Source of the DNA: a virus
Lineage: Duplodnaviria > Caudoviricetes
Direction: 5' to 3' (one strand)
Length of the DNA: 64,000 nt
IMG/VR virus record: IMGVR_UViG_3300032324_000938
Coordinates: 1 to 64,000 of that record
The notes under the pieces: generated by a model
Databases searched by the model: none
Told to the model about the DNA's origin: nothing
The model's input: only the letters and a program-made list of their open reading frames with translations
Made by a program: the position numbers and the translations under genes
In this document: piece after piece, positions 35,295 through 35,556 of the stretch
Numbering within the stretch: the first letter of the stretch is position 1
Layout of the letters: the number at the start of each line of letters is the position of its first letter

Positions 35295-35556
35295 TCTCAA
35301 TTGGTGTATATACGAAACATATCAAGGTAACTGAGGATATACGTAAACACTGAAAATAAAATTGTTGTGTAACAATGCGATGGGCAACCATAAAAAACGT
35401 GAATCGGTGGAAGGGCCGAACAGACACAATAGTCGTTAAATCAGTTCAATATCGTAAAAACTAGGGGAAATAGATTTGTTTGAATGCACAACGGACACCC
35501 GCACATCGCATTATGAGTCCGTGAGAGTCGCAGTACGTGAGCGACATTGAGAACCA
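35295..35556 (+). ncRNA. 262-nt giant tRNA-like RNA
   Basis: 7-bp acceptor TCTCAAT/ATTGAGA + A + CCA, T-arm-like hairpin, internal ATGCGATG/CATCGCAT stem. Confidence 0.6.

What the first reader, a model, noticed from the sequence alone, without database searches (positions are those of the whole stretch)
35295..35556. 262-nt CCA-ended RNA with tRNA acceptor and T-arm enclosing a large domain
Seen: TCTCAAT/ATTGAGA-A-CCA ends, a 3' hairpin GTCGC/GCGAC, an internal 8-bp ATGCGATG/CATCGCAT helix, and the same 5' motif (TTGGTGTATA) as the 43430 element. It is not the tmRNA (at 44675), and I could not find group I core or RNase P motifs. Inference: a second member of a class of giant tRNA-like RNAs. 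Established context: large ncRNAs such as GOLLD and ROOL occur in phage tRNA clusters but are longer.
Basis: partly seen in the sequence, partly recalled or inferred. Interest (0 to 1): 0.72.

Follow-up and report, generated by a model that had tools for sequence, protein, structure and literature searches.

The report
tRNA-framed 260-nt phage RNA gene
Among the tRNA genes of an uncultured freshwater T4-type giant phage lies a 258-262-base gene for a folded RNA whose ends copy the top of a tRNA and whose middle is an unrelated 174-base domain. It resembles a double-sized version of phage T4's still unexplained "stable RNA" RNAC, and its job is unknown.

Summary
35295-35556 (+) starts with TCTCAAT and ends with ATTGAGA-A-CCA. 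It carries the GTCGC/GCGAC hairpin and the ATGCGATG/CATCGCAT complement, and shares TGGTGTATA with the 43430 element.

Two IMG/VR contigs, identical to each other, carry the same 258-nt unit at 93% identity with no indels. Homology stops at the terminal stem. Three pairs change on both sides and four more change on one side while staying paired.

The unit reads as a tRNA-like four-way frame:
- a 7-bp acceptor stem, then U8 G9;
- a D-position stem that opens into a 174-nt domain;
- an anticodon-position hairpin with a 20-nt loop;
- a T-position hairpin with a 9-nt non-canonical loop.

It is not a decoding tRNA, tmRNA or group I intron, and it matches no Rfam family. The ACCA end is missing in the relatives. 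It sits at different tRNA junctions in different contigs.

The closest known thing is T4 RNAC, which has the same plan at half the size and no known function, but a T4 RNAC model does not match it. The 43430 element is a separate family with the same design idea.

Best reading: a non-decoding stable RNA released by tRNA-processing enzymes. Its function is unknown. This scan noted similar tRNA-framed RNAs on other phage DNA.

The parts
34769..34798 (+). Sigma-70-type promoter-like site (TTGACA-18-TATAAT, 12/12). It probably drives the sub-operon tRNA-Asn ... tRNA-Tyr-like, E1, tRNA-like X, tRNA-Phe.
   Evidence: The next strong promoter-like site is at 35786-35815, with no terminator-like site between. 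Transcription itself is inferred.
35295..35556 (+). E1, the whole unit. 258 nt are conserved (35295-35552); the window copy adds ACCA.
   Evidence: 93% identity to L002:2369-2626 and L003:3071-2814, with no indels.
35295..35301 (+). Acceptor-like stem, 5' strand (TCTCAAT).
   Evidence: Pairs with 35546-35552. C35298/G35549 becomes U/A in L002, a change on both sides.
35302..35303 (+). U8 G9-like connector.
   Evidence: Read from the sequence. The same TG follows the terminal stem of the 43430 element.
35304..35309 (+). D-position stem, 5' strand (GTGTAT).
   Evidence: Pairs with ATGCAC 35484-35489 in the MFE and alifold folds. Invariant, so untested by covariation.
35310..35483 (+). 174-nt central domain that emerges where a tRNA has its D loop.
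   Evidence: The lower part of the rod (35315-35343 with 35453-35481) is poorly determined.
35349..35353 (+). Helix ACUGA, pairs with UCAGU 35441-35445.
   Evidence: A35349 to G keeps the pair as G-U.
35361..35370 (+). 10-bp helix, 5' strand (AUUGUUGUGU); partner 35424-35433.
   Evidence: Best supported helix: one pair changed on both sides (G-C to A-U) and three changed on one side, all kept.
35371..35423 (+). Tip of the domain, a three-way junction. It holds hairpin AUGG-GCAA-CCAU (35380-35391, GNRA loop) and hairpin UCGGU-GGAAGG-GCCGA (35404-35419).
   Evidence: Only 1 substitution in 53 nt against L002. Short words from about 35365-35395 recur in a similar element of another genome of the scan.
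35424..35433 (+). 10-bp helix, 3' strand (ACACAAUAGU).
35441..35445 (+). Helix UCAGU, partner of 35349-35353.
35484..35489 (+). D-position stem, 3' strand (AUGCAC).
   Evidence: GCAC is also the 3' strand of the D stem in the 43430 element.
35491..35522 (+). Anticodon-position hairpin: 6-bp stem ACGGAC/GUCCGU and a 20-nt loop ending AUUAUGA.
   Evidence: A35495/U35518 becomes C/G in L002, a change on both sides. The loop is not a 7-nt anticodon loop.
35374..35382 (+). Candidate tertiary (loop-to-junction) pairing AAUGCGAUG with CAUCGCAUU 35504-35512.
   Evidence: 9 perfect pairs, duplex energy -16.1 kcal/mol. Reached by 25 of 300 shuffles and invariant in relatives, so unproven. It competes with the AUGG/CCAU hairpin.
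35523..35526 (+). 4-nt connector (GAGA) in the variable-loop position.
   Evidence: Read from the sequence.
35527..35545 (+). T-position hairpin GUCGC-AGUACGUGA-GCGAC: 5 bp with a 9-nt non-canonical loop.
   Evidence: Invariant. There is no GTTCRANYC-type T loop.
35546..35552 (+). Acceptor-like stem, 3' strand (AUUGAGA).
35553..35556 (+). ACCA tail, present in the window copy only.
   Evidence: Present in the window. Replaced directly by a T run in L002/L003.

Best explanation
E1 is a free-standing gene for a non-decoding, structured stable RNA built on a tRNA frame.

Proposed steps:
1. It is transcribed with its tRNA neighbours from the promoter-like site at 34769-34798.
2. Its 7-bp acceptor-like stem stacks on the 5-bp T-position hairpin. 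This 12-bp minihelix, with U at -1 and (in this copy) ACCA, is the minimal shape that RNase P and the 3'-trimming and CCA enzymes recognise.
3. The RNA is therefore cut out at 35294|35295 and after 35552/35556 as a species of about 260 nt.
4. The mature RNA folds as a four-way junction: acceptor stem, a D-position stem that opens into a 174-nt domain capped by a three-way junction, an anticodon-position hairpin with a 20-nt loop, and the T-position hairpin.
5. The frame supplies processing and stability. The conserved tip of the domain and the large loop supply the activity, most likely by binding a host or phage factor as a decoy or scaffold.

The plan is that of phage T4 RNAC, at twice the size.

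Shown: the sequence features, the unit boundaries, conservation without indels, pair-preserving substitutions, the + strand, and the absence of coding constraint.
Inferred: transcription, processing by RNase P and tRNA 3' enzymes, stability, and any function.
For: - The unit boundaries equal the terminal stem. The flanks differ between window and L002, and the unit sits at a different tRNA junction there.
- 18 substitutions and no indel over 258 nt. In the fold predicted from the window alone, 11 substitutions fall in paired positions and only 1 pair breaks, against 5.4 expected (P about 0.01).
- In the curated helix set, three pairs change on both sides and four on one side, and every cell stays paired.
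- G-U pairs that alternate with G-C or A-U fit the + strand, the same strand as all the tRNA genes.
- A full tRNA-like frame can be read: 7-bp stem, U8 G9, D-position stem GUGU../..GCAC as in the 43430 element, anticodon-position hairpin, 4-nt connector, T-position hairpin abutting the acceptor strand.
- It is not coding. The 29-codon internal ORF takes 5 nonsynonymous among its 6 substitutions (sequence).
- A perfect promoter lies upstream and no terminator lies before the unit.
- T4 RNAC, also in the tRNA cluster of a T4-type phage, folds into the same four-way plan with 16 covarying pairs. It is an expressed RNA of unknown function (PMC9697503).
Against: - Only two distinct sequences exist, so covariation is thin. 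The shuffle control cannot be significant with two rows (68/500).
- The fold energy is ordinary (z = -1.0).
- The T-position loop is not a T loop, and the ACCA is absent in L002/L003, so efficient RNase P or CCA handling is not assured.
- The unit is missing from closer relatives that keep both flanking tRNAs (L004), so it is dispensable or mobile.
- Nothing points to a specific partner or activity.
Confidence: 0.6

Rival explanations
1. An interrupted tRNA gene. A mobile insert or an intron of unknown type fills the D loop (174 nt) and another enlarges the anticodon loop by 13 nt. The RNA must be spliced to give a working tRNA, possibly with anticodon UAU from the loop end AUUAUGA.
For: - A complete cloverleaf frame can be read.
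- Neighbouring tRNA genes in this phage group do carry inserts: tRNA-Asn with a 51-nt insert at 34944-35069, and insert-bearing tRNAs at L002:2042-2189 and L004:4903-5006.
- Enigmatic phage tRNA introns are on record (PMC6784885).
Against: - No Rfam tRNA, group I or group II signal, even at E up to 10 on the 291-nt stretch.
- ARAGORN with introns does not call it, and rejects all 216 artificial 'spliced' versions.
- The T-position loop has 9 nt and no T-loop sequence.
- No uninterrupted relative of the frame exists in about 310 kb of related tRNA clusters.
- D-loop introns are unknown in bacteria and phages (established knowledge).
Confidence: 0.12
2. A selfish or passenger non-coding module. 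It has 7-bp terminal inverted repeats and is moved between tRNA junctions by recombination or homing-endonuclease traffic, with no function for the phage.
For: - It sits between tRNA-Tyr-like and X in the window, and after tRNA-Phe in L002.
- In L004 the same Tyr|X junction (flanks 97% identical) holds an HNH-type ORF plus an insert-bearing tRNA instead.
- A GIY-YIG ORF lies in the operon.
- ACCATTT stands on both sides of the window copy.
Against: - There is one copy per record.
- Internal helices far from the ends keep pairing through substitutions, with G-U on the transcribed strand.
- ACCA followed by a T run follows nearly every tRNA here, so it is not a clear target duplication.
- Mobility and function do not exclude each other.
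Confidence: 0.13
3. A decaying tRNA-derived remnant or spacer whose hairpins are fortuitous.
For: - The fold is thermodynamically unremarkable.
- The family is tiny.
- ACCA is lost in L002/L003.
- It is absent from several relatives.
Against: - 258 nt without a single indel at 93% identity, while adjacent tRNA genes are only 76-79% identical.
- Substitutions avoid breaking pairs.
- The borders are sharp.
Confidence: 0.1
4. A chargeable tRNA mimic, or a second tmRNA-like RNA, that acts on the ribosome.
For: The window copy has a 12-bp minihelix plus ACCA. A large domain with a possible pseudoknot recalls the tmRNA plan.
Against: - ACCA is not conserved.
- There is no G3-U70 pair; the third pair is U-A.
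- The internal ORF is not conserved.
- There is no Rfam tmRNA signal, and a canonical tmRNA already lies at 44676-45058.
Confidence: 0.05

Closest known systems
Phage T4 RNAC ('species 1' RNA, rnaC; AF158101 70908-71046) and its companion RNAD
   Same: - It lies in the tRNA gene cluster of a T4-type phage, next to a GIY-YIG homing endonuclease gene.
- It is non-coding.
- It has the same four-way plan: closing stem, greatly enlarged D-position arm, anticodon-position hairpin without an anticodon loop, and a T-position hairpin abutting the closing stem.
- It is an expressed stable RNA of unknown function (PMC9697503).
- It is not catalogued in Rfam 15.
   Different: - E1 is about twice as long: 258-262 nt against 139 nt.
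- E1 has a perfect 7-bp acceptor stem but a non-canonical 9-nt T-position loop. RNAC has an irregular closing stem and a canonical GTTCGAATC loop.
- No sequence or model similarity in either direction.
- RNAC is in 740 enterobacterial phage records. E1 is in 3 freshwater contigs.
The 43430 element of the same window (43430-43606) and its relatives in L007, L002, L008, L016
   Same: - It has a 7-bp terminal stem with covariation, then TGGTGTATA and a D stem GTGT/GCAC, and N-CCA at the end in some copies.
- It lies in a tRNA operon and has no Rfam match.
   Different: - It is a separate sequence family; the E1 model does not hit it.
- Its D arm is of normal size, and the enlarged, indel-prone part sits in the variable/T-arm position. 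In L002 50 nt of this part are deleted.
- Its anticodon-position loop varies between copies.
Bacterial/phage tRNA (Rfam RF00005) and insert-bearing phage tRNAs (Lak megaphage 'enigmatic introns', PMC6784885)
   Same: Acceptor stem, U8 G9, D-position stem, anticodon-position stem, short connector, T-position stem. It lies in a tRNA array among insert-bearing tRNA genes.
   Different: No 7-nt anticodon loop, no T loop, no D loop. It is rejected by Rfam and ARAGORN, also after artificial removal of the extra parts.
tmRNA (RF00023)
   Same: tRNA-like ends enclosing a large domain with a possible pseudoknot.
   Different: No G3-U70, no conserved tag frame, no model match. A true tmRNA lies 9 kb downstream.
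GOLLD and ROOL large RNAs
   Same: Large non-coding RNAs reported near tRNA genes in phages (my own knowledge, not tested beyond Rfam).
   Different: No Rfam match to either. E1 is much shorter and is framed by tRNA-like ends.

Membership tests
tRNA (RF00005) | Scores as a tRNA with covariance or heuristic detectors | tested here: not met
   No RF00005 hit at E up to 10. ARAGORN gives none, with or without introns.
tRNA (RF00005) | 7-bp acceptor stem, discriminator, CCA | tested here: inconclusive
   All present in the window. In L002/L003 the stem is kept through a change on both sides of one pair, but ACCA is absent.
tRNA (RF00005) | 7-nt anticodon loop with U33, and a canonical T loop | tested here: not met
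   The loops have 20 nt and 9 nt. All 216 trimmed constructs are rejected by ARAGORN.
Group I intron in a tRNA gene | Match to the group I core model, and intron-less relatives of the host tRNA | tested here: not met
   No Rfam intron hit at E up to 10. No uninterrupted relative in the related clusters.
tmRNA (RF00023 and permuted forms) | Model match, G3-U70 pair, conserved tag reading frame | tested here: not met
   No hit. The third pair is U-A. The internal ORF takes 5 nonsynonymous among its 6 changes.
T4 RNAC family | Sequence/structure homology to T-even rnaC | tested here: not met
   Model R2, built from 4 T-even-type sequences, hits T4 at 157.7 bits but nothing in the window or in L002. 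The E1 model does not hit T4.
T4 RNAC family | Four-way junction with enlarged D-position arm, no anticodon loop, location in a T4-type tRNA cluster | tested here: met
   This is a likeness of plan, not a proof of common descent.
T4 RNAC family | Expressed as a discrete stable RNA | not testable with these tools
GOLLD / ROOL / other catalogued large RNAs | Rfam model match | tested here: not met
43430-element family | Alignable sequence beyond the 5' motif | tested here: not met
   blastn, nhmmer and the E1 model R1 find no match between the two. Only TGGTGTATA and GCAC are shared.
23S rRNA sarcin-ricin loop or 16S 3'-end mimic (lead from earlier notes) | Conserved copy of the rRNA motif with its flanking non-canonical pairs | tested here: not met
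   AGUACGUGAG matches AGUACGAGAG at 9 of 10 positions, but the 3' flank (CGAC, where the rRNA has GACC) cannot form the bulged-G motif (own knowledge of the motif). The 16S-like CAAGGUAAC and UAGGGGAA are changed in L002.

The most novel reading that the evidence does not exclude
E1 and the other odd units of these operons (the 43430 element, further stem-closed modules) are a general phage device. A tRNA chassis lets the host's own tRNA-processing enzymes cut out and stabilise interchangeable 'cargo' RNA domains. The E1 cargo, a conserved three-way junction with a GNRA hairpin, then captures a specific host factor, for example a translation or anti-phage tRNA-directed protein. T4 RNAC would be the small, long-unexplained member of the same device.
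Probability: 0.3. Interest if true: 0.75.

Novelty: new variant of a known kind. Interest (0 to 1): 0.5.

Why it matters
- T4's RNAC and RNAD have been known for about fifty years without a function. A much larger, independently evolved RNA with the same tRNA-framed plan in freshwater giant phages suggests the design is a recurring phage solution and not a T-even oddity.
- E1 offers a second, richer structure (a 174-nt domain with a conserved junction) in which to look for a partner.
- It shows that gaps in phage tRNA arrays, which tRNA finders and Rfam leave empty, hold real RNA genes.
- If the chassis idea is right, it is a natural counterpart of the engineered 'tRNA scaffold' used to express recombinant RNAs.

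Tried and rejected
Searches and tests that gave nothing:
- Rfam at gathering thresholds and at E up to 10 gave nothing but a spurious 11.5-bit PreQ1 tail match. That stretch is changed in L002.
- GenBank phages (blastn, whole unit and core) gave no match.
- Six of the eight IMG/VR scans targeted E1. Four exact probes and one spaced probe found only L002/L003. One probe had a miscounted spacer and could not match anything. One frame pattern (TGGTGTATA ... GAATGCACAA) gave 8 extra loci, which the E1 model rejects as chance. One scan fetched relatives through the neighbouring 300-aa protein.
- GTDB genomes gave no match in two scans.
- 21 metagenome loci and 8 viral loci fetched through the neighbouring 300-aa protein contain no E1 by nhmmer or covariance model.
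- ARAGORN with introns only makes artefacts that span neighbours. Artificial 'spliced' constructs are all rejected.
- No related tRNA matches the frame.
- The protein-coding reading of the 29-codon ORF and of the minus-strand ORFs is rejected by the substitution pattern and by overlap with tRNA genes.
- rRNA mimicry is rejected.
- No antisense target exists within the window.
- RNA ligase and CCA-enzyme families are not found in the 75-kb record. The record is only 24% complete, so this says nothing.
- The 9-bp long-range complement is neither supported nor excluded.

Full report
**Setting.** The window is the first 64 kb of a 75-kb IMG/VR virus record estimated to be 24% complete. It carries two long tRNA operons and a tmRNA on the + strand, a GIY-YIG endonuclease-like ORF inside the first operon, and many gaps between called tRNAs. 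The finding (E1, 35295-35556) lies in the first operon. On its left is a tRNA-Tyr(GUA)-like unit that I read at 35207-35291. On its right is a tRNA-like unit at 35563-35645, followed by tRNA-Phe.

**Observation.**
- TCTCAAT (35295-35301) pairs with ATTGAGA (35546-35552), followed by A and CCA.
- GTCGC/GCGAC forms a hairpin with a 9-nt loop that directly abuts the 3' strand of the terminal stem, giving 12 stacked pairs.
- ATGCGATG/CATCGCAT extends to 9 perfect pairs (35374-35382 with 35504-35512).
- TGGTGTATA follows the terminal-stem strand both here and in the 43430 element.

The 9-bp complement is not significant on its own, because 25 of 300 dinucleotide shuffles reach it. The minimum-energy fold is not unusually stable (z = -1.0).

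**Relatives and borders.** Six of the eight IMG/VR scans targeted E1 (five usable probes and one with a miscounted spacer), two GTDB scans and GenBank phages were searched. Only two contigs came up (L002, L003), identical to each other over the unit.
- They carry 258 nt at 93% identity with no indel.
- Homology starts at the first base of the terminal stem and ends at its last base. The flanks are different genes.
- In L002 the ACCA is missing and a T run follows directly.

The unit also sits at a different junction in each contig.
- In the window it lies between the Tyr-like unit and unit X.
- In L002 it lies after tRNA-Phe.
- L004 has flanks 97% identical to the window, but the Tyr|X junction there holds an HNH-type ORF plus an insert-bearing tRNA-like gene.

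Other relatives that cover the operon lack E1. E1 is therefore a self-contained, movable, dispensable module.

**Structure.** A fold computed from the window sequence alone keeps all but one of its pairs in L002. Random placement of the same 18 substitutions breaks 5.4 pairs on average (P about 0.01).
- Pairs 35298/35549 (terminal stem), 35369/35425 (10-bp helix 35361-35370/35424-35433) and 35495/35518 (helix 35491-35496/35517-35522) change on both sides.
- Four more pairs change between G-U and a Watson-Crick pair.
- These G-U pairs exist only on the + strand.
- With two distinct sequences, the formal shuffle control cannot be significant (68/500).

Read in tRNA register, the unit has:
- a 7-bp acceptor stem, then U8 G9;
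- a D-position stem GUGUAU/AUGCAC that opens into a 174-nt domain where a tRNA has its D loop;
- one unpaired A;
- a 6-bp anticodon-position stem with a 20-nt loop;
- a 4-nt connector;
- a 5-bp T-position stem with a 9-nt loop;
- the acceptor 3' strand, then A and CCA.

The domain ends in a three-way junction with a GCAA-capped hairpin and a GGAAGG-loop hairpin. That tip has 1 substitution in 53 nt. The lower part of the domain is poorly determined.

**What it is not.**
- *Not a catalogued RNA.* There is no Rfam match, even at E up to 10 on the 291-nt stretch.
- *Not a decoding tRNA.* ARAGORN, with or without introns, does not call it, and it rejects all 216 constructs in which I removed the extra parts. 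No tRNA in the related clusters resembles the frame, and no uninterrupted version exists.
- *Not a protein gene.* The 29-codon internal ORF takes 5 nonsynonymous among its 6 changes.
- *Not a tmRNA.* The third acceptor pair is U-A, and a canonical tmRNA is present elsewhere.
- *Not an rRNA mimic.* This lead came from earlier notes on other phages. The T-position loop resembles the sarcin-ricin sequence at 9 of 10 positions, but its flank cannot form the motif. Two 16S-like words are changed in L002.
- *No antisense target* stands out in the window.

**Closest precedent.** Phage T4 carries, at the end of its tRNA cluster and next to the GIY-YIG gene segB, two 'small, stable RNAs', rnaC (139 nt) and rnaD (119 nt). 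A 2022 study still describes them as of unknown function (PMC9697503).

I aligned rnaC from four T-even-type phages. It folds into a four-way junction with an irregular closing stem, a very long D-position arm, an anticodon-position hairpin without an anticodon loop, and a canonical T arm. Sixteen pairs covary. That is the plan of E1 at half the size. However, the rnaC model does not match E1 and the E1 model does not match T4, and E1 lacks a T loop. E1 works like, or at least is built like, RNAC, but it is not a member of that family. RNAC and RNAD are themselves absent from Rfam 15.

**The 'class' claim.** The 43430 element (43430-43606) has its own relatives: L007, L008, L016, and L002 with a 50-nt deletion.
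- Its terminal stem covaries.
- It has a normal-sized, highly conserved D arm.
- Its anticodon-position loop varies.
- Its enlarged, indel-prone part sits in the variable/T-arm position.

It shares only TGGTGTATA and the GCAC strand with E1. The two are parallel uses of a tRNA frame, not one sequence family. Further stem-closed, non-tRNA modules lie in L002. Earlier notes of this scan report similar tRNA-framed RNAs in other phages. One of them, in another T4-like genome, shares short words with E1 that I could localise to about 35365-35395, the GCAA-hairpin region. I could not retrieve that sequence, so this remains a lead for a more distant homologue.

**Mechanism.**
- *Inferred.* The unit is transcribed from the 12/12 promoter-like site at 34769-34798, with no terminator before it. 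RNase P and the tRNA 3'-end enzymes release it, because a 12-bp acceptor/T-type minihelix with U at -1 is their minimal substrate (established knowledge of RNase P substrates). It persists as a stable RNA whose conserved tip and large loop bind a partner.
- *Not shown.* Expression, RNA ends, partner and phenotype.

I put 0.6 on 'free-standing non-decoding stable RNA on a tRNA frame'. The remainder goes to an interrupted tRNA (0.12), a selfish module without function (0.13), decaying remnant (0.10) and chargeable mimic (0.05).

**Limits.** One IMG/VR scan was wasted on a miscounted spacer.

Noticed in passing
window 43430-43606: The '43430 element' is a conserved family (L007:2455-2636, L002:11963-12098 with a ~50-nt deletion, L008:3218-3039, L016:11409-11230). 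It has a covarying 7-bp terminal stem, a normal D arm, an anticodon-position hairpin whose loop varies (AUUAGGA, UAUUAGCU, AAGACA), and an enlarged variable/T-arm region. ARAGORN with introns mis-joins its 5' half to the next tRNA-Ala.
   Followed up: partly
window 35207-35291: Type-II tRNA-Tyr(GUA)-like gene: acceptor GGGGTAT/ATACCCC, anticodon loop CUGUAAA, long variable arm, T loop AGCATTA. Neither ARAGORN nor Rfam calls it.
   Followed up: no
window 35563-35645: tRNA-like unit with a canonical T arm (AAAGG TTCGATT CCTTT) and an odd body, not called in the window. Its L002 homologue (2198-2274) is called tRNA-Ile(gat) with the anticodon at position 39.
   Followed up: no
L004:4434-5009: At the same tRNA-Tyr|X junction, where the window has E1, this relative has an HNH-type endonuclease-like ORF (about 4511-4897) followed by a tRNA-like gene with an insert in the anticodon region (about 4903-5006). 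ARAGORN calls that gene tRNA-Phe i(33,30).
   Followed up: partly
L002:2042-2189: tRNA-like gene with a long insert, between tRNA-Tyr and unit X. ARAGORN with introns calls it tRNA-Gly(tcc) with a 54-nt intron.
   Followed up: no
L002:2634-2896: Two further non-tRNA modules directly after the L002 copy of E1. One of ~117 nt ends ...GTAGCCCACCA. One of ~140 nt is closed by TCTGAAC/GTTCAGA. Both are absent from the window.
   Followed up: no
window 35075-35200: An AT-rich, ORF-free stretch of ~125 nt between the insert-bearing tRNA-Asn and the tRNA-Tyr-like gene, with partly complementary ends. It may be another module.
   Followed up: no
window 35532-35541: AGUACGUGAG in the T-position hairpin (loop 35532-35540 plus the first stem base 35541) matches the universal sarcin-ricin loop sequence AGUACGAGAG at 9 of 10 positions. 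The flanks do not fit the bulged-G motif, so it is probably chance.
   Followed up: yes
L033 (T4 AF158101 70908-71046) with L043, L044, L045: T4 rnaC has a well-covarying four-way-junction structure (16 pairs with changes on both sides in 4 sequences). It occurs in 740 GenBank phage records and is flanked by tRNA genes. Neither rnaC nor rnaD matches any Rfam 15 family.
   Followed up: partly
window 33000-45100: No tRNA with anticodon CAU (Met, fMet or Ile2) was called in either operon of the window. The relative L008 has tRNA-Met(cat) and tRNA-Ile(tat).
   Followed up: no
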